Notes: a model not told the origin generated them from the letters alone. DNA of 64,000 nt from Elusimicrobiota bacterium (GCA_043827405.1 JBDRPD010000053.1:20826-84825); one strand, 5' to 3'. Positions 217 to 55,595 are shown, counted from the stretch's first letter. Numbers and translations are program-made.

Positions 217-1399
217 AGGGCGCGAAAGCCTGTTCGCGGCGGTAAACTTCCACCGCCTCGGCGTCGGTCTTTTTGTACTCCGACTTCTTGCGGATGATCA
301 GACGCACGGTGCCGGAAACGCCGGCCGCCTCCGGCAGCTCGAACTCGCGGGCCAGCGGCTCGGACAGGCCGAGAGAAACCAGCTCGCCGGTGGGATTGGT
401 GGGCCGGACCGATTCCTCGCTGCGCCCGCTTTCCTTGGTCGGATCGTAGAGGCGCAGATCGGCGGCGAAAACCTCCCGGCCTTCGGGATCGAGAACTGCA
501 AAGCGCAGCAGGTAGATTTTGGGCGTATCGGGGAGCAGCGGATGCGGCATGAAGTCGGTCGGCCAGCGCACGGCCAGGAAATTGCGGCCCTCCCGCCGCC
601 GCACCTCCAGCGTCAGCGTGTCGAACATGGGCGCGATGACGTGCTTGATCTTCTGCGGGTTGGCGGACCAGTAATAGTAATGCGTTCCCCGGCCGTCCGG
701 GCCATGCTCCATATGGCATTGCTCGCAGCTCAGGTAGGGTTTCTGCCGCTGCGCCGGATCGAGCCGGAACTTCTCCGCGTATCCCTCGACGATGGTGCTG
801 TGGCAGCTGACGCAGTTGTAGATATGCGCGAACGTCGTCGACGGGATAGGGTTGCAGAAGCCTTCCGGCGGCTGGAAGCCTGCCGGCGGAGCGTAATCCG
901 GCCGCGTCACCACGCGGTCTCCCTTGCGGTGACAGGTGATGCAGTCGACGCCGCTGGTCAGCTCCAGCCAGGCCGGGCCGCCGAAGTCCTCGTACCTGAT
1001 CCGCGATTTCCCGTCCCACTCCGCCGGGATCGAGTCCTCGTATACGCTGCGGGACGGCGCATGGCATTCCACGCACTCCTGTTTATAAATCTTGATTTTT
1101 TTCTTGCGCTCGCGCTTGGACAGGCCCTCGGCGGGGCCGACGGAATCGCGCATCGACCGCGCCATCATCTCGAACGCATGCGCATGCGGCCCGCGCTTCC
1201 ACTGCTCATAGACGCGCGGATGGCAGGCGGCGCAGCGCTGGATATCCTGCTTCCTTTGCCGGTCCTTGCGCAGCACGGCTTCGCTGCGCTTATAGAGAAC
1301 GATGCCCGCGTCCTCGTCCTCATCGGCGAAGGCCGCGGCGCAGAGGAACGCCGCGATGCCGGCGCTCAATAGGCCGAGCCGCGCGCACCTCAGCGGCAT
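215..1399 (-). CDS. Multiheme c-type cytochrome (5 CxxCH motifs) with signal peptide and a non-heme C-terminal domain
   Basis: ORF 215..1618(-). The real start is probably the internal Met of MPLRCARLGLLSAGIAAFLCAAAFA (signal peptide; ATG at 1397-1399). Heme motifs: CAACH, CVECH, CITCH, CVSCH, CEQCH. It overlaps the stop of the upstream radical SAM gene by about 10 nt. Confidence 0.75.
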   Translation of the reverse strand: MPLRCARLGLLSAGIAAFLCAAAFADEDEDAGIVLYKRSEAVLRKDRQRKQDIQRCAACHPRVYEQWKRGPHAHAFEMMARSMRDSVGPAEGLSKRERKKKIKIYKQECVECHAPSRSVYEDSIPAEWDGKSRIRYEDFGGPAWLELTSGVDCITCHRKGDRVVTRPDYAPPAGFQPPEGFCNPIPSTTFAHIYNCVSCHSTIVEGYAEKFRLDPAQRQKPYLSCEQCHMEHGPDGRGTHYYYWSANPQKIKHVIAPMFDTLTLEVRRREGRNFLAVRWPTDFMPHPLLPDTPKIYLLRFAVLDPEGREVFAADLRLYDPTKESGRSEESVRPTNPTGELVSLGLSEPLAREFELPEAAGVSGTVRLIIRKKSEYKKTDAEAVEVYRREQAFAP

Positions 1400-2844
1400 C
1401 CCGCGCCCTCCCGCAGGCCGCCCAGCAGCCGCTCCGCCAGGCGCAGGGGAAAGCCCTTGCGCAGCGGCGCGCGCAGCAGCCGGTCGAAGCCGCCGCCCGA
1501 AGGCTGCAGCACGCCGCAGCGCAGCCAGTCGCGGTACGCCTGGCCGTAGCAGTGGCTGAAAAGCATGAACTCGGCGCGCCGCCGGAGCGCGCCCGCCAAA
1601 TGGCGGGAGCGGCGCCACGCGGCCAACGGCGAGTAGAAGCGCCGTATCAGCTCGCGGGCTCCCGCGAACAGCTCTTCCTGCCGCACGCCTTCGGGGACAA
1701 ACGTCAGGTGGTTGCCGTCGAAATCGGACAGCTTTTCGGATATGTAGCGGCCCTTGGTCCGCATCGACTTGTGGATGCGGGCGCCGGGATTGAAGGTCAG
1801 CCAGGTCAGCTTCAGCGCGATAATGCCTACTTCCTCGCAGAAATCGGCGAACTCGACAAAAGAGCTCCGCTCCGTACCGCTCAGGCCGAGGATAAAGCCG
1901 GTGGCGATCTCGATGCCGTGCGCCTGCGCGCGGCGGATGATGCGCCGGTACGAGTCGACCTTGTTCTGCGTCTTATTGACCGTCTTCAGCGCCGCCGGCG
2001 ACAAGCTCTCCAGGCCGCAGTACATGATCCGGCAGCGGCTCGCATGCAGCGCTTCGAGGACCTCGGCATCATCGAGCGTCTCCAGGCAGCACTCCCCCAT
2101 CCAGCCCGCGACCGAGGACTCTCCGAGCGTCCGCGCCGCCGCGAGCAGGTGCTCCTTGCGGCTGCCGATGTTGTAGTCGACGACGTTGACGAATCGGCGC
2201 CGGTTGACCCGCAGGTCTTCAGCCAGCGCGTCCATCCCGCGGTAGTCCGTCTTGCCCTGCATCATATGGACGAGGCAGAAAGTGCAGGCCTCGCCGCAGC
2301 CCAAGGCCGACTCGACCGGCGTCCCCATAAACTGCAGATAGCGGCCCGGATTCTCCACCAGGTCCAGAGCCGGCGGCGGCGACCCGTTGAAAGAGGCGGC
2401 CTGCTCGGCGCGGTAAATCCGGGCGAGCTTGCCGGCGGCGAGGTCGGCGAGAAACGCCGCGGCCTGCGGCTCGAAGCGGCCCTGCACCACGCTGTCGGCG
2501 GTCTTCAGGCATTCGTCCGGCAGCAAAGTCGGCAGCTCGCCGCCCCAGACGATTTGGATATCCGGATGCGCCGCGCGCGCCAGCGCCGACAGCTCTACCG
2601 CTAGGGGCAGGTTCTGCGCGCTCACCTTCAAGCCGCAGACCTGCGGGGCGTCGCCCCGTTCCAGCACCTCGCGGTATTCCTCGGCGGGCACGAAATTCAG
2701 ATCCACGATCCGCACATCACAGACATCGCGCAGACAGGCGGCGACGGCGGGCAAAGACAGGGACAGCCCCCCTTTGGGAAAAGTGGGCGGATCCAGCAGC
2801 AGGATCTTGGTGCGCGCGCGCGCTTGGCCGGACGGCATCTGCAC
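1390..2844 (-). CDS. B12-binding-domain radical SAM protein
   Basis: 484 aa. The N-terminal region resembles a cobalamin-binding domain (KILLLDPPTFPKGGLSLSLPAVAACL). The CGEACTFC segment is a CxxxCxxC radical SAM cluster motif. Same strand as, and overlapping, the downstream cytochrome c gene. Confidence 0.7.
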   Translation of the reverse strand: MQMPSGQARARTKILLLDPPTFPKGGLSLSLPAVAACLRDVCDVRIVDLNFVPAEEYREVLERGDAPQVCGLKVSAQNLPLAVELSALARAAHPDIQIVWGGELPTLLPDECLKTADSVVQGRFEPQAAAFLADLAAGKLARIYRAEQAASFNGSPPPALDLVENPGRYLQFMGTPVESALGCGEACTFCLVHMMQGKTDYRGMDALAEDLRVNRRRFVNVVDYNIGSRKEHLLAAARTLGESSVAGWMGECCLETLDDAEVLEALHASRCRIMYCGLESLSPAALKTVNKTQNKVDSYRRIIRRAQAHGIEIATGFILGLSGTERSSFVEFADFCEEVGIIALKLTWLTFNPGARIHKSMRTKGRYISEKLSDFDGNHLTFVPEGVRQEELFAGARELIRRFYSPLAAWRRSRHLAGALRRRAEFMLFSHCYGQAYRDWLRCGVLQPSGGGFDRLLRAPLRKGFPLRLAERLLGGLREGAGCR

Positions 2845-2889
2845 AGTATATCCATCCAGGCACCACTTGCGCCACTAGCGCGCCGCGCT

Positions 2890-3080
2890 CCGCTGAAAGT
2901 GAGCGGAAGCTGCAGGTGAAAAACGGCACTGTCTTCCCCGAATTCGATCCCTTGACGGATCACGGTTCGCCGTCCATCCGGTAATGAGGTTAGCTCGCGC
3001 GACCACTGATGATCCGTCAAGAGCGCAATTCCGGGCAAGGAACTGCCGTTCTCCGCAGGCAGATTCTTATCGGCACGATA
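2890..3080. repeat. Copy A of a dispersed ~190-bp intergenic repeat family; forms a long imperfect palindrome
   Basis: Shares ...aacggc(a/g)ctgtcttccccgaattc(g/a)atcccttgacggatc... and ggtaatgaggttagctcgcgcg with copies at 4608-4800 and 6222-6410. Internal inverted repeats: ttgacggatca ... tgatccgtcaa, and aacggcactgtcttcc ... ggaactgccgttctcc. Confidence 0.6.
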
Positions 3081-3099
3081 ATGCCAGAATGATCGCACC

Positions 3100-3181
3100 T
3101 ATTTATAGCAATTAAGTACTGGTAATAATGTATTTATTCTAGTATAATATCGATATATCGATATAATATCGGTATAGCGAT
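3100..3181 (+). promoter_or_regulatory. AT-rich promoter/operator region upstream of the XRE regulator gene
   Basis: Local AT-rich island in a ~70% GC genome. It contains two tataat hexamers and palindromic atatcgatat / atatcgatata motifs immediately upstream of the ATG at 3182. These look like sigma70 -10 boxes and an autoregulatory operator. Confidence 0.45.
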
Positions 3182-3958
3182 ATGGATATTGAGACCGCAT
3201 CCAAATACCGGAAGCACATCGGACAGAAAGTCCGGGAGCTTCGCCAACAGCGCCGCTGGACGCAAGCAGCGCTGGCGGAACATCTCGGCTTGTCTCAGAA
3301 CCGGCTCTCCGAGATCGAACGCGGCCAGGGCTCCTTTACCGCGGAGCAGCTCCTGATTATCATCCGGTTATTCAACGTCTCCTTCGATGACTTCCTGCCG
3401 AAGAAAAGAGGGCCCGCTTTATCGCGGATTCAGCAGGCGCTGGCCAGGCTGGGCGCGCGGCACCTGCATGAGCCCGAGGACGCGCTGCCTACCGAAAAGC
3501 TCGGCACCGCCCGCGAGCTCATCCGCGAGGTCCTGGCCTCGGCCGAGTCCGCGCGGCACATCACCTCTTTGGCTCCCGTTATCGTGGAGAATTGCTCGGC
3601 CCTCAATCTACCAGCACTGCGATACGAACTGGCCGGCCTGCGGCTGGACCGGCGCTTCGGCTGGCTGCTGCAAAACGTCCGCGCGGCGATAGATTTGGAG
3701 CTCAAATCCACCCGGCTCTCGCGCCAGTGGGTTTTCAAGTATCGCAAAGCCCGCAAGCTCCTCGACTTCTCGATCGATTACAATCCGCCCCCTCCCGAAG
3801 CGGCGGAAGATCTTTTCGATTCCGACGCCACCACCGACGAATCCGTTGAGGAAATCCGGCAGGAGCGCTCGACGCTGTCCGAGAAGTGGCGCATCCTGAC
3901 CCGGCTTAAGCCCGAAGATTTCGCGTCGGCGTTGAGGCAGGCTCGTGGCGAGGATTGA
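3182..3958 (+). CDS. XRE-family helix-turn-helix transcriptional regulator with an extended C-terminal domain
   Basis: The N-terminal segment QKVRELRQQRRWTQAALAEHLGLSQNRLSEIERGQGSFTAEQLLII is a classic Cro/C1-type HTH. 258 aa. Overlaps the downstream ORF by 14 nt. Confidence 0.8.
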   Translation: MDIETASKYRKHIGQKVRELRQQRRWTQAALAEHLGLSQNRLSEIERGQGSFTAEQLLIIIRLFNVSFDDFLPKKRGPALSRIQQALARLGARHLHEPEDALPTEKLGTARELIREVLASAESARHITSLAPVIVENCSALNLPALRYELAGLRLDRRFGWLLQNVRAAIDLELKSTRLSRQWVFKYRKARKLLDFSIDYNPPPPEAAEDLFDSDATTDESVEEIRQERSTLSEKWRILTRLKPEDFASALRQARGED

Positions 3959-4535
3959 AGATTTCCTGCGCGACATCGACCGCCGCTGGAAGCCCGGCGG
4001 CGGCAAGATCACGCTGCAAGTCCTGGGCTCCTGCGCCCTCATGCTCCAGGCCGACTACGAGCGCGGCACCAAGGACGGCGACGTCTTGGAAACGCGCGAG
4101 TTGACCGGCCCGATCAAGAAGCAGCTCCTGGATCTCGCGGGGAAAGGCACGGATCTCCAGAAGCGGCACCGCCTCTATATCGACATCATCACCGCGGGGC
4201 TGCCGTTTTTGCCGCAACGGCCCGCATTCCACCCGGCCAAGTCGCTCGACGACCTGCGCCACTTCCGCGTCGAGGTCCTGGACGCGACCGACGTCGTCGT
4301 CAGCAAGCTCAAGCGCTTCAAGCCCGACGATATCAAAGACATCCGCGCCATGGTCGTTGAATACGAGCTCGTTGATCATGCCCGCCTCCTGGAGCGCTTT
4401 CGCCGGGCCGTGGACTGGTTCTCGATGGACGCCCGCAGCGAGAGTTTTCCCAAGATAGTCAAGAACCTCAACACGGTCGAACGGGAGTACTTCGACGTTC
4501 CGCCCACCCCGGCAGAACTCCCTGAGTGGGGCTGA
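3945..4535 (+). CDS. Hypothetical protein, possible minimal nucleotidyltransferase fold, coupled to the XRE regulator
   Basis: 196 aa. The segment LQVLGSCALMLQADYERGTKDGDVLE fits the G[SG]x(9-15)DxD signature of polymerase-beta-type nucleotidyltransferases (MNT/abortive-infection-type). Overlaps the stop of the XRE gene. Confidence 0.4.
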   Translation: MARIEDFLRDIDRRWKPGGGKITLQVLGSCALMLQADYERGTKDGDVLETRELTGPIKKQLLDLAGKGTDLQKRHRLYIDIITAGLPFLPQRPAFHPAKSLDDLRHFRVEVLDATDVVVSKLKRFKPDDIKDIRAMVVEYELVDHARLLERFRRAVDWFSMDARSESFPKIVKNLNTVEREYFDVPPTPAELPEWG

Positions 4536-4607
4536 CGGGGCAATAGCCCGGGCCAATCTTGCCCCTGTTTCGCGCGACGTTGGCCCACATGGGGCGCGGT
4601 GCGCGGA

Positions 4608-4800
4608 GAAAGGCTTGGCTGATAGGAAGCTGCTGGCGAGAAACGGCGCTGTCTTCCCCGAATTCAATCCCTTGACGGATCTTCGGCGGTCTTCCATCCT
4701 GTAAAGATGTTCGCCTGCGCGGCGGGAATACGCCAAGGGCGGTTTAGATCGGCGGGAAACGGCGGCTGGAGCGGAACCAAGATACGTAACACCGATTATC
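4608..4800. repeat. Copy B of the dispersed ~190-bp intergenic repeat; 3' end carries a perfect hairpin ccaagata-N21-tatcttgg
   Basis: Begins (ga)taggaagctgctggcgagaaacggcgctgtcttccccgaattcaatcccttgacggatc. The last ~105 bp (gcgcggcgggaatacgccaagggcggtttagatcggcgggaaacggcggctggagcggaaccaagatacgtaacaccgattatcaatattatcttggag) are nearly identical to 6300-6410. Confidence 0.7.
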
Positions 4801-5027
4801 AATATTATCTTGGAGTACAACTGGGAGGTCGCGGAGATCTTGACCCAGCTGGCGCGCAAGGCGGGGCTGCCGTCCGACGGCTGGAAGGAGGGGGCGGAGT
4901 TCGAGGTTTTCGCGGCGCAGATCATTCCGGAGCAGGCGTTAAGCTGCTCCCAAATTCGCTCTTGCTGTCAAATTGAAAATCTAATTTACAACTTGACAAT
5001 ACCCGCTTCCCGCGTTATCCTTACGGT

Positions 5028-6221
5028 ATGATTCAGCGTTCCATAACTCCGAAGCTCGTCTCATTGGCCAAGCAGTTCCCCGCTATAGTGCTCACGGGGC
5101 CGCGGCAGTCCGGAAAGACCACCTTGGCGAAGATGGCTTTCCCAAAGTACGCCTATGTCTCCTTGGAAAATCTGGACAACCGGGACTTCGCGACCCGCGA
5201 CCCCCGAGGCTTCCTCGCCGAGTATCAGAAGCGCGTCATCATCGATGAAGCTCAGCGCGCTCCCGATCTACTCTCCTACATTCAGACCGTCGTCGATGAA
5301 GACGCCTCTCCGGGGCGCTACATCCTCACCGGCTCCCAGCAATTCAATCTGCTCGCGGGAATAAGCCAGTCTTTGGCTGGGAGAGCCGCATACTTGCGGT
5401 TGCTGCCTTTCTCCGTGTCAGAGCTCGCGGGCTCCAAGCCGGTCGACGCTTTCGCGCTTAGTACGCCCGATCACAGACCTCCTCCCAAGGGTCTGGCATT
5501 GGAAACAGTGTTGTTCCAGGGGCTCTATCCCAGGATATACGATCGCAAGCTGGCCGCGCGGGACTTCCTGGCCGCCTATATCGCTGCCTACATCGAGCGG
5601 GATGTCAGGGAAGTCACGCGGGTGGGGGACCTTTCCACGTTCCGGAGATTTCTCCAGCTCTGCGCGGGCCGGTCAGGGCAGATACTTAACCTATCCAACC
5701 TGGGGGCAGATTGCGGGATTTCCCATCCCACAGCTCGTCAATGGCTCTCTGTGCTCGAGGCCAGTTCAATCGTGGTCCTGCTCCAGCCGTTTCACAAGAA
5801 CTTCAACAAGCGCATCGTGAAAAGCCCGAAGCTTTACTTCCTGGATTCCGGCCTAATGTGTCATCTTCTGCGCCTGCGAGACGCGGATGATCTTCGGGGG
5901 CATCCGCTTTACGGCAGCATTTTTGAGACCTTCGTCATGTCGGAGGTTCACAAAGCCTTCGCCCATCTCGGCGAGTCTCCGCCGTTGTATTATTGGCGTG
6001 ACCGGACGGGACATGAGATTGACCTAATCGTGGAGAGCGGGCGTTCACTAACAGCCGTTGAGATTAAATCCGCCAAAACAGTATCTTCCGATTTTTTCAA
6101 GCAGTTGCGGTATTTCGCCGGCTTGAAAGGGGTTTCAGGGGATTCCGTCCTTGTATATGGAGGGGAGGAATCCACGAAACGCGAGGGTGTAAGAATCAGG
6201 ACATGGCATCAAGCCTCTTAG
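5028..6221 (+). CDS. AAA-family ATPase with Walker A motif and a DUF4143-like C-terminal region
   Basis: 397 aa. LTGPRQSGKTTLAK Walker A. The overall layout (ATPase core plus DUF4143-like C-terminus) is typical of the widespread ATPase/DUF4143 family. Flanked on both sides by the dispersed repeat. Confidence 0.75.
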   Translation: MIQRSITPKLVSLAKQFPAIVLTGPRQSGKTTLAKMAFPKYAYVSLENLDNRDFATRDPRGFLAEYQKRVIIDEAQRAPDLLSYIQTVVDEDASPGRYILTGSQQFNLLAGISQSLAGRAAYLRLLPFSVSELAGSKPVDAFALSTPDHRPPPKGLALETVLFQGLYPRIYDRKLAARDFLAAYIAAYIERDVREVTRVGDLSTFRRFLQLCAGRSGQILNLSNLGADCGISHPTARQWLSVLEASSIVVLLQPFHKNFNKRIVKSPKLYFLDSGLMCHLLRLRDADDLRGHPLYGSIFETFVMSEVHKAFAHLGESPPLYYWRDRTGHEIDLIVESGRSLTAVEIKSAKTVSSDFFKQLRYFAGLKGVSGDSVLVYGGEESTKREGVRIRTWHQAS

Positions 6222-6410
6222 GAAGCTGCTGGTGAAAAGCGGCGCTTCCTCCCCCCCATCGCTCCTTTGACGGATCACGGTTCGCCCTGCGCCCTGTAAT
6301 GAGGTTAGCTCGCGCGGCGGGAATGCGCCGAGGGGCGGCTTAGATCGGCGGGAAACGGCGGCTGGAGCGGAACCAAGATACGTAACACCGATTATCAATA
6401 TTATCTTGGA
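6222..6410. repeat. Copy C of the dispersed ~190-bp intergenic repeat with the terminal hairpin
   Basis: Starts right after the ATPase stop (ttaggaagctgctggtgaaaagcggcgcttcc...cctttgacggatcacggttcgccc...gtaatgaggttagctcgcgcggcgggaatgcgcc...ccaagatacgtaacaccgattatcaatattatcttggag). A gataggaag motif recurs about 25 bp downstream. Confidence 0.7.
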
Positions 6411-6457
6411 GCCGCGCTAACCTCGCTTCAGGATAGGAAGTCCCGTCGGCTCAGCCT

Positions 6458-7021
6458 CTAGCGGACCCGGCAGTTGACCTTTTCGCCGCTCTTTGCCAAC
6501 TCCAGGATCGCCTCCCCTCCCTTCATCCAGAAGGTCACCCCGTCCGCTGAGTACTTGGCACCCGATCCGGAAACGGCGCGGGGCAGGACATGCCGGGTCT
6601 TGCCGTAGCTCACGGCGAGCTTATCGCCGGGCAGCAGCTCCACGCCGATGAGGGCGCCGAAGGTCGTGACGTAGTCGAAGCCCTGAGGCACGGGCGTCTG
6701 ACGGGTGAGCGCGTACTTGCCGTCTAGTCCCCTGAATAGCAACAGCTCCATACCGCCGGCCCCGTCGCGGCCCCGGTAGTGGCAGACGAGCCGGTAGTTG
6801 ATGCCAGCGACGACCTGAGTGTGAACTTCGACGAGCTTCTCGCAGCGGAAGCCGCGCTCGGGGGCCTTCTCGTTGACCAGCCTTTCCGCGGTCTCCACGA
6901 TCTCCGCGAACTCGGCGGCGGAAGGGTCCTGCTCCGTGTAGCCGCCCGGCAGGGCCGCCATGGCGGACGCGGCCAGGACGCCGAGCAAAGACAGTCCGAC
7001 GCACGGCTTCCAGATTCTCAT
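6458..7021 (-). CDS. Secreted two-domain inhibitor-like protein: N-terminal cystatin-like domain (QVVAG) and C-terminal MliC/PliC-like lysozyme-inhibitor domain (SGSGAKY)
   Basis: 187 aa. Signal peptide MRIWKPCVGLSLLGVLAASAMA. The QVVAGINYRL motif matches the QxVxG cystatin signature. The C-terminal segment SGSGAKYSADGVTFWMKGGEAILE...C matches the S(G)SGA(K/R)Y hallmark of the MliC family. Confidence 0.55.
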   Translation of the reverse strand: MRIWKPCVGLSLLGVLAASAMAALPGGYTEQDPSAAEFAEIVETAERLVNEKAPERGFRCEKLVEVHTQVVAGINYRLVCHYRGRDGAGGMELLLFRGLDGKYALTRQTPVPQGFDYVTTFGALIGVELLPGDKLAVSYGKTRHVLPRAVSGSGAKYSADGVTFWMKGGEAILELAKSGEKVNCRVR

Positions 7022-7149
7022 GTCGCCTCCTTCACGTCTCCTTCAAGATGTTCCGCAAATAAGAATTGCAAGTAGGGACTTGCATCCTTAAAACCGCGCT
7101 GCATTATCCAAATCGCGTCCATTGAAACCGCAGCGAATCCGCTCCAGCC

Positions 7150-7200
7150 TGTAGAAAGCATAGCTCGCGCGGCGGGAATGCGCCAAGGGGGACGCCGGCA
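7150..7200. repeat. Partial copy D of the dispersed repeat (core atagctcgcgcggcgggaatgcgccaaggg)
   Basis: A 35-40 bp match to the central block of copies B and C. Confidence 0.45.
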
Positions 7201-7255
7201 CGGCGCTCTTGACGCCTCCGGAGAGATCGACTAACCTAGAAAGGCCCCTTCCCGT

Positions 7256-7444
7256 ATGATCAGCAAAGCCATCGGATTTGTCATCTGTCTATTCGCCGTG
7301 CTGCTGCCGTGGCGGCTGCGCATCCTGTTCGCCGAATTTCTCGGCTGGCTCACGCAGCTGATCTACTACACCTACTACGGCATCTTCAACTACATCCTCC
7401 GCGAACTGCGCAAAGCCGAGAGGGAGAGCAAGCGTGCCCGCTGA
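7256..7444 (+). CDS. Small hydrophobic membrane protein (62 aa)
   Basis: MISKAIGFVICLFAVLLPWRLRILFAEFLGWLTQLIYYTYYGIFNYIL: two predicted transmembrane helices. Its stop overlaps the start region of the PP-loop gene. Confidence 0.4.
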   Translation: MISKAIGFVICLFAVLLPWRLRILFAEFLGWLTQLIYYTYYGIFNYILRELRKAERESKRAR

Positions 7445-8264
7445 AGACATGGTCGTGCTCTTTTCGGGCGGGACGGACTCCACTTTGGCCGCCGCGCTGG
7501 CGGCGGAGAGCGGCCGCAAAATCCACCTGGTCACCTACGATCGTTTCGGGCTGTACTCCACCGGCAATACGCGGCGCGCGGCGCAAGGGCTGAGCGAGAA
7601 GTTCGGCGCGGATAAAGTCACCCATACGGTCCTGCGCTATGACGGCCTATTCCGCCATGCCTCCTACGAGCGCTATCTGTCGAACCTGACGCGGCACGGC
7701 TTCTTCGTCCTTTCCACCTGCGGCTTATGCAAGCTCGCCATGCATATCCGCACCATCGTCTATTGCCTCGATCATGGGTTCAAGAACGTCTGCGACGGAG
7801 CGAATAAAGGGATGGACCTTTTCCCCGCGCAGATGGACTGCGTCATCGACGAGCTCAAGAAGCTCTACGCCCGCTTCGGGATCGCCTATACCAACCCGGT
7901 ATTCGATTATGAGCCGCCCGCCGAGGACGGCTTTCTCGAAAAGGACAACCTGGCGCTGATCAAGCCGGCGCAGGAGGAGCCCCGCGCGGACGGAGAGAAG
8001 ACCGCCGGCCGCCGCCTGCGCGAGCTGGGGCTGGCGCCGGCCGACAATATCAAGGGAACCGCGTACGACCGCGAGCGGCAGCCCCGCTGCTTCCAATTCA
8101 TCCTGTTCAACGTCTTCGCCAAAAAGTACTATCTCGCGTCCCATTCGCTGGAGGAGTACCGGGAAGCGACGCTGGGCTTTTTCCGGGACAAGATCAGCCG
8201 CTACGCGGCGCTGCTGCTGGAATACCGGGAGTCCGGGGCGCATAAGGACATACTGAAATCCTAG
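7434..8264 (+). CDS. PP-loop superfamily ATP pyrophosphatase (adenine nucleotide alpha-hydrolase; QueC/LarE/TtuA-like)
   Basis: 276 aa. N-terminal VVLFSGGTDST matches the SGGxDS PP-loop motif. Central Cys cluster STCGLCKLAMH...CLDHGFKNVCDG. Confidence 0.7.
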   Translation: MPAEDMVVLFSGGTDSTLAAALAAESGRKIHLVTYDRFGLYSTGNTRRAAQGLSEKFGADKVTHTVLRYDGLFRHASYERYLSNLTRHGFFVLSTCGLCKLAMHIRTIVYCLDHGFKNVCDGANKGMDLFPAQMDCVIDELKKLYARFGIAYTNPVFDYEPPAEDGFLEKDNLALIKPAQEEPRADGEKTAGRRLRELGLAPADNIKGTAYDRERQPRCFQFILFNVFAKKYYLASHSLEEYREATLGFFRDKISRYAALLLEYRESGAHKDILKS

Positions 8265-8635: not shown

Positions 8636-9846
8636 GCGCCGCGGACAGCGAACGCCTGCGCGCCGATTTCCCCTCGCTGCAGGCCGCCGGCGGAAAGCGC
8701 CCCGTCTATTTCGACAACGCCTGCACCACGCTGCGGCCGCTGCAGGTCGTCGAGGAGATGAACGAGTACTACCTGCGCCATCCCTCCTGCCACAAGCGTT
8801 CGGTGCACGCCTTCGGCCGGATGACCGACGAGAAGTTCGAGGCCGCGCGCGAAGCCGCGCGCGCCTTCATCAACGCGGAGCATGCCTCCGAGATCATATT
8901 CACCCGCAACACGACCGAGGGGATCAACCTGATCGCCGGCTCCTACCCGTTCAAGGAAGGCGACACGGTGGTGACCACCGATCTCGAACACAATTCCAAC
9001 CTGATCCCGTGGCGCGCGCTGGGGGAACGCAAGGGCGTCCGGCTCACGACGGTGCCGGTGGGACCGGACGGGAATTTCGACCTGGACGCATTGCGCGCCG
9101 CGCTGCGCGGCGGCGTCAAGCTGGTCAGCGTGTTTTCGCATTCCCACGTCCTGGGAATCGCCGCGCCGCTGGCCGAGATCGCGCGCCTGACGCACGCGGC
9201 CGGCGGCAAGCTGCTGGTGGACGCGGCGCAGACGCCGCTGCATGAAAAGCTGGACGTGCGCGCGCTCGCCGCCGATTTCCTCGTTCTCTCCTTCCACAAG
9301 ATGCTCGGGCCGTCGGGGATGGGCCTGCTTTACGGCCGGCGCGCGCTGCTGGAAGAGCTGCCGCAGTTTTTGACCGGCGGCGAGACCGTCGAGGACGTCG
9401 ACGACCGCGGCTATGTCCCCGCCGCGGTGCCGCACCGCTTCGAAGCCGGGCTGCAGAACTACGCCGGCGCCATGGGCGCGCACGCCGCGATCCGCTACCT
9501 CGACCGCGTCGGCTTTTGCCGCCGGGAGCACGAGATCGAGCTCAACGAAATCATCACCGAAGGCCTCGCCGGCCTGGACCGCTTCCGCCTGCTCGGCCCC
9601 CGCGACCCGCGGCGGCGCGGCTCGATCGTCAACTTTTACCTCGACGGCATGGATTCCGGCGAGCTGTCGATCCTCCTCGACAAGACCGAGAGCATAATGA
9701 CGCGCAGCGGCGTCCACTGCTGCCATGCCTGGTACCGCAAGTACCGCCTGCCGCCGACGCTGCGCGCCTCGCTGGCGTTCTACAATACGCGGGAAGAGGC
9801 GGAGCTCTTCGTCCGCACCCTGAAGAACGTCAGCGACTATTTCTGA
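8632..9846 (+). CDS. Cysteine desulfurase, class V aminotransferase (SufS/NifS/CsdA-like)
   Basis: Starts at the internal Met MSAADSERLRADFPSLQ... of ORF 8341..9846. FDNACTT near the N-terminus, a FSFHKMLGP motif (PLP-lysine region) and a C-terminal RSGVHCCHAW motif (catalytic Cys loop) are typical of SufS-type desulfurases. Confidence 0.8.
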   Translation: MSAADSERLRADFPSLQAAGGKRPVYFDNACTTLRPLQVVEEMNEYYLRHPSCHKRSVHAFGRMTDEKFEAAREAARAFINAEHASEIIFTRNTTEGINLIAGSYPFKEGDTVVTTDLEHNSNLIPWRALGERKGVRLTTVPVGPDGNFDLDALRAALRGGVKLVSVFSHSHVLGIAAPLAEIARLTHAAGGKLLVDAAQTPLHEKLDVRALAADFLVLSFHKMLGPSGMGLLYGRRALLEELPQFLTGGETVEDVDDRGYVPAAVPHRFEAGLQNYAGAMGAHAAIRYLDRVGFCRREHEIELNEIITEGLAGLDRFRLLGPRDPRRRGSIVNFYLDGMDSGELSILLDKTESIMTRSGVHCCHAWYRKYRLPPTLRASLAFYNTREEAELFVRTLKNVSDYF

Positions 9847-11033
9847 TTGCGCAGCAGGCGCGCGAGCTCGTCGGCGATGACCCGATGGCCGGCGGCGTTG
9901 GGATGGATGGTGTCGGAGTTCCGATCGACGAAAAGGTACTCGTCCGGGTGCCGGCCGAACGCCGCCGCCGCGTCCGCCAGCGGCACGCCGAGCTCGCGGC
10001 CGAGCTCTTCCATGGCCGCGTTGTAGCGGACGGCGTCGCGGGCGCAGCGGCGCGACTCCGCTTCCTTGACCCGGCGAAAATGCTCGGCGGCGTCCTTGCT
10101 CCGCCCCAGCCTGCGCGCGCACTCGCCCAGGTAGTAGTGCGCCCGGCCGAGATGAGGATCGGCTTCCAGAGCCTGGCGGAAGGCTTCGGCGGCGGCGCGG
10201 CAGTCGCCCTTGTCCATGAGCGTACGCCCCGCCCGCAGGCTGCCGCGGGCGAACTCCGGATCGGCGGGATCTTTTCCCCGCGGCAGGTTCACCGGCATCT
10301 TGACGAAGACCGGCTCGGCGCCGCGCTCGCGGACCAGTTCGACCAGGCGCTTGAGGTTGGCGCGATAATCTTCCAGCGATACGCGCACCTCGCCGGGGCA
10401 AGCCGTCTTTGCGCCGCGCCGCAGCAGCCGCCGCAATAGCCGATACAAGGCCAGCCGCGACACCGCGCCGCGCGCCGCCGTCAGCGCCCCCGGCGCCGGC
10501 CGCAGCGCCTTATCCGGCCCGCCGCCGCTGCGAAAGAAGCGGTAGGAGTCGACGTCGTTGATGACGTAGGCGATAGTGACGATGTCCGGGCGCAGCCGGT
10601 CCCAGTAGCGCTTGAGAAAGCCGAGCCCTTGGTGGGTCGAGTAGCCGATGATCCCGCCGTTGACGACCTCGGCCGCCAGCAGCTCCCGCAGAAGGGCCGC
10701 GTACGTCGCGTCCGCGGGCACGCCCCAGCCGAAAGTCGGCGAGGCGCCCAAGGCCAGGACACGCACCCGGCCGGACCCGCGCGGCGCCGCGGCCAGCCGC
10801 AGCCCCAGGTCGTCGGTGGCCACCGCGGTGCCGAAGAAGTCCGCGCGCAGGCGGGGCTTCTGCGTCCACAGCAGCTCGGAATCCGGCCGCAGCAGCGCCA
10901 GGATATTGTCCAGCCGCGTCGCGGGGACGACGCAGCGCAGCCCCAGCTCCGCCGCGGCGAGCGCCAGCACGCCGACGAGACAGGCGGCGAGGCGGAGGAT
11001 GTACGGACCGGCAACTGGGGGTTTGCGCGGCAT
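9837..11033 (-). CDS. SGNH/GDSL-family hydrolase with N-terminal membrane anchor and embedded TPR-like repeat
   Basis: 398 aa. N-terminal TM (YILRLAACLVGVLALAAA). The block VLALGASPTFGWG is in SGNH block-I position. A TPR-like stretch (AAEAFRQALEADPHLGRAHYYLGECARRLGRSKDAAEHF). C-terminal DTIHPNAAGHRVIA (DxxH catalytic dyad). Divergent from the CCP array. Confidence 0.6.
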   Translation of the reverse strand: MPRKPPVAGPYILRLAACLVGVLALAAAELGLRCVVPATRLDNILALLRPDSELLWTQKPRLRADFFGTAVATDDLGLRLAAAPRGSGRVRVLALGASPTFGWGVPADATYAALLRELLAAEVVNGGIIGYSTHQGLGFLKRYWDRLRPDIVTIAYVINDVDSYRFFRSGGGPDKALRPAPGALTAARGAVSRLALYRLLRRLLRRGAKTACPGEVRVSLEDYRANLKRLVELVRERGAEPVFVKMPVNLPRGKDPADPEFARGSLRAGRTLMDKGDCRAAAEAFRQALEADPHLGRAHYYLGECARRLGRSKDAAEHFRRVKEAESRRCARDAVRYNAAMEELGRELGVPLADAAAAFGRHPDEYLFVDRNSDTIHPNAAGHRVIADELARLLRNQK

Positions 11034-42531: not shown

Positions 42532-43505
42532 TGGTCCGGCTCCTGCTTTTTGCCGCGGCCGCTTTCGCTTTCGCCGCCGAAACAGACAGCGCCCTAATAC
42601 GATCCTTCGCCGGCCACCGGGACCTCGTTAACAGCGTCGCCGTGTCGCATGATGGACGGAGGATGGCATCCGGCAGCGCCGACCTCACCATCCGGCTGTG
42701 GGACATCGCGACCGGCAAGCAGCTATCGCTGTGGAAAGGGCATACGGTCGAAGTGAACATGGTCGTTTTCTTCCCCGACGACAAGAAGCTGCTGTCCGCC
42801 GGCGCCGACAACAACATCTACCTGTGGGACGCCGCGACGGGAAAAAATCTCGCGATCTGGCACGGCCATACCGACGACGTCAATGCTATCGCCGTCTCAC
42901 CCGACGGCACCAAAGCGCTTTCCGGCGGCCACGACGGCTACGTGCGGCTATGGGACACGGCGACCGGGAAACTGCTCGCCTCCTGGCTGGTCGACAACTT
43001 CGTCTACGCCGTCGCCTTCTCTCCCGACGGCAGCAAAGCGCTTTCCGGACAATGGGACAAGACGCTCAAGCTGTGGGACGTCGCGACCGGGAAGCTCCTC
43101 GCCACCTGGAGGGGCCATACCGACAAGGTCTACGCCGTCGACTTTACTCCCGACGGGAAAACCGCGCTGTCGAGCAGCAAGGACAAGACCGCGCGGGTAT
43201 GGGATGTCGCCAGCGGCCGGACGCTGCATATCCTCCGGCAGCCGCGCGGCATCGACGCCGCGGCCTTCTCCCCCGACGGCAGCAGGATACTGACCGGCAA
43301 CCGGGACTGGACGCTGACGCTCTGGGACACGGCCAGCGGAAAAGAGCTGCGCGCGTTCCACGGCCACCAAGACTACATCTACAGCGTCGCCTTTCTTCCC
43401 GACGGCCGCCGCGCCGTTACCGCCAGCGTCGACCGGACCATCAAGCTGTGGGACCTCGATGCGGCGTTCGTGAAGACGGATAAAGAAACGAACGGCTATC
43501 GCTGA
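42531..43505 (+). CDS. Secreted stand-alone WD40-repeat beta-propeller protein (7 repeats, no heme domain)
   Basis: 324 aa. Signal peptide MVRLLLFAAAAFAFAAETD. Seven canonical WD40 repeats (GHRDLVNSVAVSHDG...IRLWD etc.). No CxxCH. Confidence 0.85.
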   Translation: MVRLLLFAAAAFAFAAETDSALIRSFAGHRDLVNSVAVSHDGRRMASGSADLTIRLWDIATGKQLSLWKGHTVEVNMVVFFPDDKKLLSAGADNNIYLWDAATGKNLAIWHGHTDDVNAIAVSPDGTKALSGGHDGYVRLWDTATGKLLASWLVDNFVYAVAFSPDGSKALSGQWDKTLKLWDVATGKLLATWRGHTDKVYAVDFTPDGKTALSSSKDKTARVWDVASGRTLHILRQPRGIDAAAFSPDGSRILTGNRDWTLTLWDTASGKELRAFHGHQDYIYSVAFLPDGRRAVTASVDRTIKLWDLDAAFVKTDKETNGYR

Positions 43506-44878
43506 GCGGCCAGCTCCGCGTAGACGTTATCCGCCAGCACCCGGTTCCCGGCCGGCGTCAGGTGGTCGTTGTCCTCGAGGTAGTCGCCGCGCCCCGCACG
43601 CTCGATCAAAGCGCCGAATACGGCGCGGTTGTCGATCAGCGGCAGCTTATGCTTCTCGGCGATCCGCTGGATGGCCGTATTGGCGCTCTGGTACGCCACC
43701 GGATAGTTCTGCAGCACCAGGCGCACGCCTTTCTCCCGGCATAGCCGCACCATCTCATCCCAGCTCTCCATACGCAGACGGTTCACGTAGCGCTCGACTT
43801 CCTCGCGGTCGGTGAGCAGCTTATGGAAGCTGCGGAAGTCCTTATTCTCTCCCAGCCCCGGATGCTCGCGCCGCGAGCGATCCAGCACCCGCAGGACGTC
43901 CGCCGCCGTGTACCGGCTCTGCACCTGATAGGTCTGGACGAACTGGAAGTTCGCGCCGTCGAAGGCGTCGGTCCAAAAGCCGGCGGGAAACGCCCCGGCG
44001 ATCTCCAGCAGCAGCGCGAAATAATCGTCGTAGCGCGACTGCCGGGTATAAACGCGGCCCGCATAGTCGGCCAGCAGCTCCATAAAGTCGCCGGCGCGGC
44101 GCAGGTCCAGCTCATAGCGCCGCGCCTCCGCTCCGAAGACGGGCCGCAGCCGCGCCGTCAGCTCCGGCGCCAGGGCGCGCTGAGGATCGCCGGCCATGAG
44201 CTTCCGGTGCTCGCGATAAACGCCCAGCAGCAATGCGAACTTTTCGTCCGAGTTTGGCTCCGTCTTCCCGCCCGCCCGCCGATGCCGCCACCGCAGCCGC
44301 AGGTGGCGGAAGACTTTGTAGATGCGCAGGCGGTAAAGCCAGCCGGCGGGCAGAACGTCGTGCCACCGCCCCCCTTCCTCACGCATTCGCTCCCGCATCA
44401 GGGGCAGATTGAAGATATCCGCGGCGCCCACGAGAACGACGACGGCATCCGGCGGCCGCTGCGCGCCCTCGGTTTCAAGGTAGCGCTTGAGCTTGGCGGC
44501 CGCGCCGAAGGTGCTCTCCTCGCACTTCCCCATATTATAGACCGCGGCCGGCATTCCGGCGTCGATGAACCGCCGGTACAGGAAATACGGAAAGCTGTGG
44601 TAGCTTTTGACGTTGGTGCCGTTGGTGAGCGAATCGCCGAAGGCGAGGATCAGCCGCGTCCGGCCGTTCGGCGGGCGGTAACGCTCGAACGTGTCGTCGG
44701 CGTCGTGCTCCCCCTCATCATAGGGCGGCAAAAACTCCCGCTGCCGCGAGGCGGTGAGAGCGAAACCGGTCGCCCGCAGACCCGCTTCCAGCAGCGCCAG
44801 GCAGATGAGCAGGCTGACCAGAAATACGGTCAGCTTGACGCCGGGCGAATGTTTGTATTTATTTAGGAATCTCTTCAC
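43496..44878 (-). CDS. Membrane-anchored SGNH/GDSL hydrolase family protein (paralog of the 54189-58348 cluster)
   Basis: 460 aa. N-terminal TM (VKLTVFLVSLLICLALLEAGL). GDSL block LILAFGDSLTNGTNV. C-terminal DNDHLTPAGNRVLADNVY (DxxH). Convergent 10-nt overlap with the WD40-only gene. Confidence 0.75.
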   Translation of the reverse strand: MKRFLNKYKHSPGVKLTVFLVSLLICLALLEAGLRATGFALTASRQREFLPPYDEGEHDADDTFERYRPPNGRTRLILAFGDSLTNGTNVKSYHSFPYFLYRRFIDAGMPAAVYNMGKCEESTFGAAAKLKRYLETEGAQRPPDAVVVLVGAADIFNLPLMRERMREEGGRWHDVLPAGWLYRLRIYKVFRHLRLRWRHRRAGGKTEPNSDEKFALLLGVYREHRKLMAGDPQRALAPELTARLRPVFGAEARRYELDLRRAGDFMELLADYAGRVYTRQSRYDDYFALLLEIAGAFPAGFWTDAFDGANFQFVQTYQVQSRYTAADVLRVLDRSRREHPGLGENKDFRSFHKLLTDREEVERYVNRLRMESWDEMVRLCREKGVRLVLQNYPVAYQSANTAIQRIAEKHKLPLIDNRAVFGALIERAGRGDYLEDNDHLTPAGNRVLADNVYAELAAQR

Positions 44879-53460: not shown

Positions 53461-54192
53461 TCAAGCGGTCTTTTTCGCCGTCTTTTTCAGCTCACGGTCC
53501 CAGTGCTTGTTGGCGTTGCGGATATAGACATCGTGCGCGATGAGCGGCTTCTCGAGCACGGCGCGGGTCGGCTCGGAGATCGCGCCGTTTTCGACGACTT
53601 CCCGTCCCGCCGCCCGCACGGCCTTCATGTAGCCGCGCAGCATGAACCGCAGCATCGCCGACTCCACCCTGAGGAGCTCGCCCTCCCCGCGGTAGATCTC
53701 GGCGATGACCTCCGAGTGCATATTGCGCGCGATCCGCCGGAACAGCAGCTTCAGCACCTGGAAATGACTCTGCTCGGGGAAGCCGCAGTTGGAGATGACG
53801 ACGATCTTCGGCACGCCGACGGCCTTGACGTGCCGGTACTCGCCCGCCGAATCCTTCGCAAAATGAGGATCAATGAGCGGCACCATCCGGTCCATGAAAT
53901 TCTTCATCAGGCCCGAGACGTTGTCGACGTAGAGCGGCGTCGCGAAGACTACGATGTCGCTGTGCGCGAACCGGGGCAGCAGCTCGGCCATATCGTCCGG
54001 CATCGCGCATTTGCCGGGAGTTCGCGTCCAACACTTGAAGCAGCCGCGGCAGTGCTTGATCTTCTTCTCCGCGAGCAGGACATTCTCGACTTCGGCGCCG
54101 GCCGCGGCGGCGCCGCCGAGGAACGCCTCCACGAGAATATGGGTATTCCCCTTGCTTGCGCGCGCGCTGCCGTTGAAGGCCGTGATTTTCAT
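53461..54192 (-). CDS. Flavodoxin-fold NADPH-dependent FMN reductase / iron-sulfur flavoprotein (Isf-like)
   Basis: 243 aa. MKITAFNGSAR...SDIVVFATPLY matches the NADPH-dependent FMN reductase family. A compact Cys cluster HCRGCFKCW is like the Isf [4Fe-4S] motif. Its start overlaps the first SGNH gene (ATGA at 54189). Confidence 0.7.
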   Translation of the reverse strand: MKITAFNGSARASKGNTHILVEAFLGGAAAAGAEVENVLLAEKKIKHCRGCFKCWTRTPGKCAMPDDMAELLPRFAHSDIVVFATPLYVDNVSGLMKNFMDRMVPLIDPHFAKDSAGEYRHVKAVGVPKIVVISNCGFPEQSHFQVLKLLFRRIARNMHSEVIAEIYRGEGELLRVESAMLRFMLRGYMKAVRAAGREVVENGAISEPTRAVLEKPLIAHDVYIRNANKHWDRELKKTAKKTA

Positions 54193-55586: not shown

Positions 55587-55595
55587 CGTTAAAGC

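What the first reader, a model, noticed from the sequence alone, without database searches (positions are those of the whole stretch)
2890..7200. Dispersed ~190-bp intergenic repeat family with a conserved terminal hairpin (MITE/REP-like), 3-4 copies within 4.3 kb
Copies at about 2890-3080, 4608-4800, 6222-6410 and a fragment at 7150-7200 share long identical blocks (aacggcgctgtcttccccgaattc.atcccttgacggatc; gcgcggcgggaatgcgccaaggg; gatcggcgggaaacggcggctggagcggaaccaagatacgtaacaccgattatcaatattatcttggag). They end in a perfect ccaagata-N21-tatcttgg stem-loop. (ga)taggaag appears at or near the boundaries of copies B and C. They occupy every intergenic space around the XRE/NTase and AAA-ATPase genes. 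This could be a miniature mobile element, a family of regulatory RNAs/riboswitch-like leaders, or recombination scars that delivered the ATPase and XRE cassettes.
Basis: seen in the sequence. Interest (0 to 1): 0.6.

Follow-up and report, generated by a model that had tools for sequence, protein, structure and literature searches.

The report
Local junction repeats around inserted gene modules
The repeats are real, but on the evidence available they are not a dispersed mobile element or a riboswitch: they are four to five local copies of one promoter/leader segment that bracket three gene modules inserted into a single intergenic hot spot of an Elusimicrobiota genome.

Summary
The repeats exist and are far beyond chance (blastn E 1e-48 to 8e-10). 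B (4620-4815) and C (6217-6411) are 193-nt units, here called L-M-s3-H, that end in the ccaagata/tatcttgg hairpin. A (2900-3074) is the L block joined to an inverted L, forming a 165-nt palindrome. D (7073-7190) is a diverged L plus the M block.

No further copy lies in the 64-kb window. Pattern scans of three public collections found nothing, and Rfam has no match.

Two related genomes have an empty site. There the radical-SAM gene and the small-ORF/PP-loop operon are about 140-150 bp apart. Here they are 4.4 kb apart, holding A | XRE+DUF6036 | B | PDC-S01 ATPase | C | MliC | D, which is three modules and four copies.

Both foreign modules occur elsewhere at about 79% nucleotide identity without the repeats. 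In D, the M block is a leftward promoter lying back-to-back with a conserved rightward promoter. The copies are mosaics of one another, as gene conversion would produce.

Best reading: these are insertion-junction (att-like) duplications of the resident promoter/leader at an integration hot spot. The recombination mechanism is unresolved. MITE, REP, integron attC and riboswitch readings fail their tests. Interest is modest.

The parts
1390..2838 (-). B12-binding radical SAM gene, the native left flank of the insertion site. The ORF finder extends it to a GTG at 2844; the NCBI and Logan gene calls give 482 aa.
   Evidence: Pfam. 100% match to P0001 from an NCBI Elusimicrobiota MAG. Orthologues sit next to the PP-loop operon in L005 and L010.
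2900..3001 (+). Copy A: L block plus the left half of M. Similarity to C stops exactly after ggttagctcgcgcg.
   Evidence: blastn 79% to B and 83.5% to C. Mosaic: B-like in the 5' part, 95.8% C-like in M-left.
3001..3074 (-). Copy A': an inverted copy of L. With A it forms a 165-nt palindrome (arms 2906-2962 and 3010-3066).
   Evidence: the repeat finder I1. blastn 69% to B on the opposite strand, E 1.7e-6. Fold -76 kcal/mol, z -3.6. Present identically in the independent Logan contig L004.
3113..4536 (+). Foreign module 1. It has its own AT-rich promoter/operator (ATATCGAT repeats at 3142-3183), then an XRE-HTH protein (3182-3958) and a DUF6036 nucleotidyltransferase (3945-4535). It looks like a toxin-antitoxin pair.
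   Evidence: Pfam, NCBIfam and PADLOC. 79.6% nt identity over exactly 3113-4536 to L044, another Elusimicrobia genome with a different neighbourhood and no repeats. GC3 0.77 against ~0.85 for native genes.
4620..4815 (+). Copy B, a full unit. Parts: L (4620-4697), M (4698-4740), s3 (about 4741-4776) and hairpin H (4777-4813).
   Evidence: The 5' hairpin GGAAGC..GTCTTCC has DNA fold z -2.8.
4963..6223 (+). Foreign module 2. It has its own palindromic operator/promoter (TTGTCAA..TTGACAA at 4966-5010; TTGACA-17-TATCCT at 4993-5021) and an AAA_14/DUF4143 ATPase (5028-6221). The ATPase is the PADLOC defence candidate PDC-S01.
   Evidence: Pfam. PADLOC E 6e-112. 78.8% nt identity over exactly 4963-6223 to L042 with unrelated flanks. 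Upstream palindrome conserved in distant homologues. GC3 0.68.
6217..6411 (+). Copy C, a full unit (L-M-s3-H). It starts at the ATPase stop codon.
   Evidence: 5' hairpin DNA fold z -3.2.
6458..7021 (-). Module 3: an MliC/cystatin-domain protein. It is absent from this locus in the relatives, but its codon composition looks native (GC3 0.87).
   Evidence: Pfam. GC3. Absent between rSAM and the small ORF in L005 and L010.
7073..7190 (+). Copy D: a diverged L (about 57-60% identical to the others) plus M (86% to C).
   Evidence: blastn 70.6% to C over 102 nt, E 8e-10. Alignment A4. Segment identities.
7157..7186 (-). P1: a leftward promoter-like site, TTGGCG-N18-TATGCT, made by the M block of D. 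It faces MliC. A terminator-like hairpin lies in the leader at 7084-7067.
   Evidence: One of only 3 matches to TTGRCR-N16-19-TANN[CA]T in 64 kb, against 0.74 expected. The same motif and spacing (ATA[GA]C-N16-CGCCA) is in L005 and L010. Hairpin.
7209..7237 (+). P2: the native rightward promoter TTGACG-N17-TAACCT of the small-ORF/PP-loop operon.
   Evidence: Conserved in L005 and L010. Local alignment beats all but 0 of 300 (L005) and 1 of 300 (L010) shuffles.
7256..8264 (+). Native right flank: a 62-aa ORF (7256-7444) and a DUF7411 PP-loop protein (7434-8264).
   Evidence: Pfam. Same genes next to rSAM in L005 and L010.

Best explanation
The repeats are insertion-junction (att-like) duplications of the resident divergent-promoter/leader segment at one integration hot spot.

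Shown:
- In the ancestral arrangement, still present in two relatives, the radical-SAM operon and the small-ORF/PP-loop operon are divergent neighbours about 140-150 bp apart.
- In this genome three gene modules sit in that gap: an XRE+DUF6036 toxin-antitoxin-like pair, a PDC-S01 AAA ATPase, and MliC.
- Every module boundary carries a copy of the same ~100-nt L-M segment, giving four direct copies for three modules, plus one inverted L.
- Two of the modules are self-contained units with their own promoters, found elsewhere without the repeats.

Inferred:
- L-M is the leftward promoter (M read on the minus strand, TTGGCG-N18-TAxxCT) with its transcribed leader (L).
- Each integration happened at or next to the left end of a resident L-M copy and left a new copy on the other side of the insert.
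- This could occur by single-crossover (Campbell-type) recombination of a circular intermediate carrying the homologous segment, or by an unidentified site-specific recombinase acting in trans, as in tandem accretion of integrase-less elements.
- Later gene conversion between copies produced the mosaics and the 99%-identical 79-nt tract shared by B and C.
- A side effect is that a leftward promoter copy stays in front of whatever lies to the left: MliC at D, antisense to the ATPase and NTase genes at C and B. In A the -35 half is replaced by the inverted L.
For: 1. Empty site. In L005 (rSAM 66% identical) and L010 (61%), rSAM is divergent from and adjacent to the 62-aa ORF/DUF7411 operon. The intergenic gap is 137 bp in L005 and about 150 bp in L010. 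In the window it is 4.4 kb.
2. D's right side is native. TTGACG-N17-TAACCT and its flanks align with both relatives, with 0 of 300 (L005) and 1 of 300 (L010) shuffles scoring as well.
3. Three modules are bounded by four direct L-M copies in one orientation.
4. Module limits are set by outside homologues. 3113-4536 is 79.6% identical to L044, and 4963-6223 is 78.8% identical to L042. Each starts at its own promoter/operator and ends at the stop codon. None of these or 31 further ATPase loci contain L, M or H.
5. Composition looks foreign. GC3 is 0.77 and 0.68 against ~0.85, and GC dips to 0.47-0.59.
6. M of copy D, read on the minus strand, is one of only three strong promoter-pattern hits in 64 kb.
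7. The copies are mosaic. A is B-like at its 5' end and 96% C-like at its 3' end. B and C are 71% identical in L but 92% from M to H.
8. All copies, including the inverted one, share the same left end, (G)ATAGGAAGCTGC, while their right limits differ.
9. The independent Logan assembly of SRR26275510 reproduces A, D and the flanks and breaks only inside the B/C shared tract.
Against: - No recombinase or transposase gene is in the 64 kb.
- No tRNA or tmRNA target is present.
- No block longer than about 6 nt is identical in all four copies, so a crossover core cannot be pinpointed.
- The claim that M and L are 'native' rests on a short motif at conserved spacing. Local alignment of M alone to the relatives is not significant, and L has no detectable counterpart in them.
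- The relatives are distant (61-66% protein identity), so the order and age of the events cannot be reconstructed.
- MliC has native-like GC3, so it may be an old resident rather than a recent insertion.
- The rest of the genome could not be searched, so further copies elsewhere are not excluded.
- The s3-H segment (about 80 nt) has no identified origin.
Confidence: 0.55

Rival explanations
1. The L-M-s3-H unit is itself a small non-autonomous mobile element (MITE, or an IS200/IS605-derived PATE-like element with a hairpin near each end). It has hopped locally into each intergenic space of a pre-existing island.
For: B and C share both ends precisely, from TAGGAAGCTGC to TATCTTGGAG. There is a hairpin near the 5' end with z -2.8 and -3.2, and an 8-bp inverted repeat near the 3' end. 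All five L copies share the left terminus. TAGGAAG recurs at 4623, 6219 and 6435.
Against: There are no terminal inverted repeats and no target-site duplication. The 5' flanks of B and C differ. Only two full-length copies exist, with none elsewhere in 64 kb and none in pattern scans of public collections. No TnpA, TnpB or other transposase is in the window. The 3' hairpin is no better than chance. D merges seamlessly into the conserved native promoter. The 'tag' of TAGGAAG at C is the ATPase stop codon, which is shared with the homologue L042.
Confidence: 0.12
2. The copies are functional promoter/leader or small-RNA genes read on the minus strand: M promoter, then an ~80-95-nt L transcript ending in the terminal hairpin. 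They are kept because they drive or attenuate the gene to their left (rSAM, MliC) or make antisense RNA against the acquired toxin and ATPase genes. This can coexist with the junction-repeat origin.
For: M of D is a strong promoter match facing MliC. A terminator-like hairpin with a T-run lies in that leader at 7084-7067. M is the best-conserved block: 3 copies with at most 1 mismatch in 23 nt.
Against: The -10 or -35 hexamers are degraded in B (GAACAT) and C (TCGGCG), and the -35 is replaced in A (sequence). There is no Rfam family. Folding z-scores are not significant. The consensus structure is weak with almost no covariation. L is only 57-82% conserved between copies. No expression data exist.
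Confidence: 0.2
3. An integron-like cassette array (a CALIN) in which the repeats are attC-type recombination sites folded as hairpins.
For: Cassette-like modules are separated by similar repeats. Copy A is a long imperfect palindrome. Toxin-antitoxin and defence cargo are typical of chromosomal integrons (own knowledge).
Against: There is no RYYYAAC...GTTRRRY core pair on either strand in 2800-7300. B, C and D are not palindromic. The units are 190 nt, longer than the usual 57-141 nt. No IntI or any tyrosine recombinase is in 64 kb. The cassettes carry their own promoters, and the repeat merges into a native promoter.
Confidence: 0.04
4. An assembly or binning artefact: a repeat-induced mis-join in the MAG.
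For: B and C share a 79-nt near-identical tract. The short-read Logan assembly breaks there, so the order B-ATPase-C is not independently confirmed.
Against: A, A', D and all unique flanks are reproduced at 100% in independent contigs. The three Logan contigs are compatible with the MAG order. The only alternative resolution, an ATPase module excised as a circle, would itself imply recombination between B and C.
Confidence: 0.05

Closest known systems
Tandem accretion of integrated elements bounded by att direct repeats, including integrase-less cis-mobilizable elements (CIMEs). Reviewed in PMC5704250. Example: Dehalococcoides ssrA islands, PMC3146451.
   Same: Several unrelated gene modules lie side by side at one chromosomal site. 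Each is bounded by a direct repeat of the target sequence, giving n+1 repeats. The modules lack their own integrase, and related genomes have an empty site.
   Different: The target here is a divergent promoter/leader, not the 3' end of a tRNA, tmRNA or protein gene. The repeats are long (100-190 nt) and only 57-84% identical outside short tracts, with no exact common core. One copy is inverted into a palindrome. No cognate integrase was seen anywhere in the 64 kb.
Campbell-type (single-crossover homologous) integration, which duplicates the homologous segment on both sides of the insert (textbook mechanism, own knowledge).
   Same: Direct repeats of a resident segment flank each insert. The right-hand limits of homology vary. 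Gene-conversion mosaics are seen between copies.
   Different: It needs a circular donor that already carries the local segment. No such donor was seen, and the modules found elsewhere lack the segment.
Chromosomal integron cassette arrays / CALINs with species-specific attC repeats, for example Vibrio VCRs (own knowledge).
   Same: Toxin-antitoxin and defence cassettes are separated by a homogeneous local repeat. One repeat is hairpin-forming.
   Different: There are no R''/R' core sites and no IntI. The repeats are not palindromic apart from A. The cassettes carry their own promoters.
Bacterial MITEs and intergenic repeats such as ERIC, Correia and REP/BIME (own knowledge).
   Same: Size range, intergenic location, an imperfect palindrome (A only) and an outward promoter.
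   Different: No TIR or TSD, not dispersed in the sequence available, and only 2 full-length copies.

Membership tests
MITE / REP-like dispersed repeat | Terminal inverted repeats | tested here: not met
   The B/C unit starts TAGGAAGCTGCTGG and ends TATCTTGGAG. The ends are not complementary.
MITE / REP-like dispersed repeat | Target-site duplication flanking the copies | tested here: not met
   Flanks of B are ..GGCTGA and TACAAC... Flanks of C are ..GCCTCT and CCGCGC...
MITE / REP-like dispersed repeat | Many copies dispersed over the genome | tested here: inconclusive
   There are no copies in the other ~60 kb of the window and no true hits in genome, metagenome or viral pattern scans. The source MAG was not in the searchable collections, so the rest of the genome is untested.
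IS200/IS605-derived PATE | Subterminal hairpins at both ends, a conserved short target 5' of the left end, and a TnpA/TnpB source | tested here: inconclusive
   The 5' hairpin is significant in B and C (z -2.8, -3.2) but not in A. The 3' hairpin is at chance level. The 5' flanks are inconsistent. No transposase is in 64 kb.
Integron attC / CALIN | R'' RYYYAAC and R' GTTRRRY core sites closing an imperfect palindrome of ~57-141 nt | tested here: not met
   No such pair on either strand in 2800-7300. Only A is palindromic.
Integron attC / CALIN | IntI integrase with attI next to the array (for a complete integron) | tested here: not met
   No Phage_integrase or other recombinase family among the ORFs scanned across the window. 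The neighbours of D are conserved housekeeping-type genes.
Riboswitch / structured cis-regulatory RNA | Match to a curated family, or a conserved structure supported by stability and covariation | tested here: not met
   Rfam finds none. z-scores are +0.9, +0.2 and +2.3 for B, C and D. RNAalifold gives -5.5 and -12.3 kcal/mol with a covariation term close to zero.
att repeats of tandemly accreted integrative elements (CIME-like) | Direct repeats at every element boundary (n+1 for n elements) | tested here: met
   A, B, C and D bracket three modules, all in the same orientation.
att repeats of tandemly accreted integrative elements (CIME-like) | Empty site in related genomes | tested here: met
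   L005 and L010.
att repeats of tandemly accreted integrative elements (CIME-like) | An identical core shared by all att copies and a cognate site-specific recombinase | tested here: not met
   No long block is identical in all four copies. No recombinase is in the window. A recombinase elsewhere in the genome could not be tested.
att repeats of tandemly accreted integrative elements (CIME-like) | The element carries its half of the att site when found elsewhere | tested here: not met
   The closest copies of both modules in other genomes lack L, M and H.

The most novel reading that the evidence does not exclude
The locus is a working gene-capture platform that does not use an integron integrase. 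A ~100-190-nt promoter/leader 'adapter' with a defined hairpin-bearing left terminus acts as the recombination site. Each captured defence or toxin-antitoxin module is delivered together with a fresh adapter copy. This would be an integron-like system in Elusimicrobiota that uses an unknown recombinase, or host recombination only, and supplies an outward promoter at every junction.
Probability: 0.08. Interest if true: 0.7.

Novelty: new variant of a known kind. Interest (0 to 1): 0.3.

Why it matters
If the reading is right, the locus gives a clean snapshot of how small defence and toxin-antitoxin modules without their own integrase pile up at one chromosomal hot spot in a poorly known phylum. 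Duplicated promoter/leader copies mark each junction. It also cautions that locally clustered repeats around accessory genes can mimic a MITE or a riboswitch family. It would matter more only if recombination at these repeats were shown to be active and site-specific.

Tried and rejected
- Rfam at gathering score and at E<=10: no relevant match.
- Pattern scans for the L start and the M core:
  - Genome contigs gave one 26-nt chance hit in a Bacteroidales MAG (L002), which extends to only 30 nt at 87%.
  - Viral contigs and metagenome contigs gave none.
- Exact-protein look-ups found the organism only in one NCBI MAG contig (194,892 bp) and in Logan SRR26275510.
- I asked whether s3-H is a diverged copy of the native rightward promoter region, and whether that region is a short L. 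Local alignments were no better than shuffles, so both ideas are rejected.
- I asked whether 6416-6445 (CTAACCT..AGGAAGTCCCG) is a relic of the native -10 box and leader. The alignment looks suggestive, but 31 of 300 shuffles score as well, so it is kept only as a hint.
- I asked whether MliC and the native intergenic region are flanked by inverted repeats (AGGAAGTCCC / GGGACTT). The repeat finder does not recover them and only 7-8 nt match. Rejected as chance.
- Six-frame translation of the four copies shows no shared ORF.
- The spacers 3075-3112, 4537-4620, 4816-4962, 6412-6457 and 7022-7072 have no detectable homologue in the window or in any fetched locus.
- 31 metagenome loci with ATPase relatives (at most 57% identity) share only the ATPase's own palindromic promoter, not the repeats.
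- No tRNA or tmRNA is in the window. There are no relevant tandem repeats, only the XRE operator repeats.
Full report
**Observation**

Reading 2500-7600 and running the repeat finder confirm a repeat family.

A sensitive self-BLAST gave these pairs:

| Pair | Coordinates | Identity | E-value |
|---|---|---|---|
| B vs C | 4623-4815 vs 6219-6411 | 83.5% over 194 nt | 1.4e-48 |
| A vs C | 2905-3001 vs 6221-6316 | 83.5% | 1.5e-21 |
| A vs B | 2900-3001 vs 4620-4721 | 79% | 2.9e-20 |
| D vs C | 7090-7190 vs 6236-6335 | 70.6% | 7.7e-10 |
| A' vs B | 3001-3074 vs 4618-4691, opposite strand | 69% | 1.7e-6 |

- The L block is near-identical only in A and B.
- The 23-nt M core is in B, C and D.
- The 79-nt s3-H tail with the ccaagata-N21-tatcttgg hairpin is only in B and C.

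A is a different object. It is L, then the left half of M, then an inverted L. Together they fold into a 165-nt hairpin (-76 kcal/mol, z -3.6). B, C and D fold no better than shuffled sequence. The terminal hairpin is not exceptional (z -1.3). No other copy occurs in the 64-kb window.

**Genes and source**

From left to right, the genes are:
- a B12-binding radical-SAM gene (1390-2838, minus strand);
- an XRE-HTH protein (3182-3958) overlapping a DUF6036 nucleotidyltransferase (3945-4535);
- an AAA_14/DUF4143 ATPase (5028-6221), which matches the PADLOC candidate PDC-S01 at E 6e-112;
- an MliC/cystatin protein (6458-7021, minus strand);
- a 62-aa ORF and a DUF7411 PP-loop protein (7256-8264).

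The window comes from an NCBI Elusimicrobiota MAG contig of 194,892 bp. The only other sample holding it is Logan SRR26275510. That short-read assembly reproduces A, D and all unique flanks, and it breaks only inside the tract shared by B and C.

No integrase or transposase family was found among the ORFs scanned across the window. No tRNA or tmRNA is present.

**Empty site**

The nearest relatives carrying the radical-SAM gene are distant, at 66% and 61% protein identity, but they are informative. In L005 and L010 the radical-SAM gene is divergent from, and directly adjacent to, the same 62-aa ORF/PP-loop/cysteine-desulfurase operon. The intergenic gap is 137 bp in L005 and about 150 bp in L010. 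In the window these genes are 4.4 kb apart.

The right part of D is native. TTGACG-N17-TAACCT and its surroundings align with both relatives, with 0 of 300 (L005) and 1 of 300 (L010) shuffles scoring as well.

Immediately upstream, all three genomes carry ATA[GA]C-N16-CGCCA at identical spacing. On the minus strand this reads nTGGCG-N18-TATRCT. In the window this is the M block of D (TTGGCG-N18-TATGCT). A scan for TTGRCR-N16-19-TANN[CA]T finds only three sites in 64 kb, against 0.74 expected. They are the ATPase's own promoter, the native rightward promoter, and M of D.

So M is best read as a leftward promoter, back-to-back with the rightward one, and L as its transcribed leader. This step is inferred. 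M alone does not align significantly to the relatives, and L has no detectable counterpart in them.

**The inserted modules are independent of the repeats**

The closest DNA relatives of the two foreign modules define their limits.
- 3113-4536 is 79.6% identical to an Elusimicrobia CG_4_9 contig (L044) and 82% identical to L049 and L050.
- 4963-6223 is 78.8% identical to L042.

Each homologous stretch begins at the module's own AT-rich palindromic promoter/operator and ends at the stop codon. The neighbourhoods differ. None of these loci, nor 31 metagenome loci with more distant ATPase relatives, contains L, M or H.

GC3 of the two modules is 0.77 and 0.68, against ~0.85 for native genes. MliC is native-like at 0.87.

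**Architecture and history**

The layout is A | module 1 | B | module 2 | C | MliC | D. That is three modules and four direct copies, plus the inverted copy in A.
- All five L copies share the same left end, around (G)ATAGGAAGCTGC.
- The right limits differ: after gctcgcgcg in A, after ccaaggggg in D, and after tatcttggag in B and C.
- The copies are mosaics. A is B-like in its first 55 nt and 96% C-like in its last 24 nt. B and C are 71% identical in L but 92% from M onwards, with 79 nt at 99%. This is the pattern left by gene conversion between neighbouring repeats.
- At C, the 'tag' of TAGGAAG is the ATPase stop codon, and TAGGA is shared with the homologue L042. That junction may therefore rest on microhomology.

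**Tests of named families**

- Integron attC: no RYYYAAC/GTTRRRY pair, no IntI, and only A is palindromic.
- MITE/REP: no TIR, no TSD, and not dispersed in the available sequence.
- IS200/IS605-type: a 5' hairpin is significant in B and C (z -2.8, -3.2). The 3' hairpin is at chance level, and no transposase is present.
- Structured RNA: no Rfam hit and a weak RNAalifold consensus with negligible covariation on either strand.

The closest described situation is tandem accretion of integrated elements bounded by att repeats. It includes integrase-less cis-mobilizable elements (PMC5704250) and the Dehalococcoides ssrA islands (PMC3146451). This locus shares the n+1 repeats and the empty site with them. 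It differs in several ways: the target is a promoter rather than a gene's 3' end, the repeats are long and divergent without an exact core, the modules found elsewhere carry no att half, and no recombinase is seen.

**Conclusion**

The repeats are most likely junction duplications of the resident promoter/leader segment. They were created as successive modules entered one hot spot and were later partly homogenised by gene conversion (confidence about 0.55).

I could not decide whether the integrations used homologous single crossovers or an unseen site-specific recombinase. The shared left terminus hints at site specificity. The mosaics and the variable right limits hint at homologous recombination.

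A MITE-like element (0.12), a functional minus-strand promoter/leader or antisense RNA family that could coexist with the main reading (0.2), an integron-like array (0.04) and an assembly artefact (0.05) remain as rivals.

The main gap is that the rest of the genome could not be searched.

Noticed in passing
window 11093-39331 (+): A tandem array of nine ~960-1040-aa paralogous ORFs with 4-nt stop/start overlaps. Each combines a WD40 beta-propeller with a di-haem cytochrome c peroxidase (CCP_MauG) domain. Pfam was run on the first and last only. This is an unusual expansion.
   Followed up: partly
window 45911-50473 (+): A 1520-aa protein combining WD40 propellers, CARDB/NEW3 domains and a C-terminal caspase (Peptidase_C14) domain.
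   Followed up: no
window 3142-3183, and L044 5953-6002: The XRE gene is preceded by tandem/palindromic ATATCGAT-type repeats (TRF period 8 and 19). They are conserved upstream of its homologues in other genomes, so they are probably the autoregulatory operator of the toxin-antitoxin-like pair.
   Followed up: partly
window 4966-5021, and upstream of ATPase genes in L011, L018, L038, L042 and L043: A palindrome TTGTCAAATT..AACTTGACAA overlaps a TTGACA-17-TATCCT promoter. It is conserved upstream of DUF4143/PDC-S01 ATPase genes in unrelated metagenomes, so the module carries its own regulated promoter.
   Followed up: partly
window 7058-7150 (-): Between the leftward promoter (M of D) and the MliC start lies a ~90-nt leader. 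It ends in a terminator-like hairpin plus T-run, TGCAAGTCCCTACTTGCA ATTCTTATTT. This could be an attenuator or a small RNA.
   Followed up: partly
L005 1558-1600 (shown reverse-complemented): In the relative, the small-ORF operon's leader contains a GC-rich perfect palindrome (CCCGCCCCGGGGCGGG) followed by TTTTTT just before the ATG. It looks like a leader terminator/attenuator and is absent from the window's version.
   Followed up: no
window 9837-11033, 43496-44878 and 54189-58348 (-): At least five paralogous GDSL-lipase-domain proteins of ~400-465 aa. Three are in tandem at 54189-58348.
   Followed up: no
many ATPase homologues: Close homologues of the DUF4143 ATPase (68-85% identity) very often sit on contigs of only 1.3-2 kb. 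This may simply reflect the short contigs of the collection. It could also mean the gene is commonly flanked by repeats or is multi-copy in those metagenomes.
   Followed up: no
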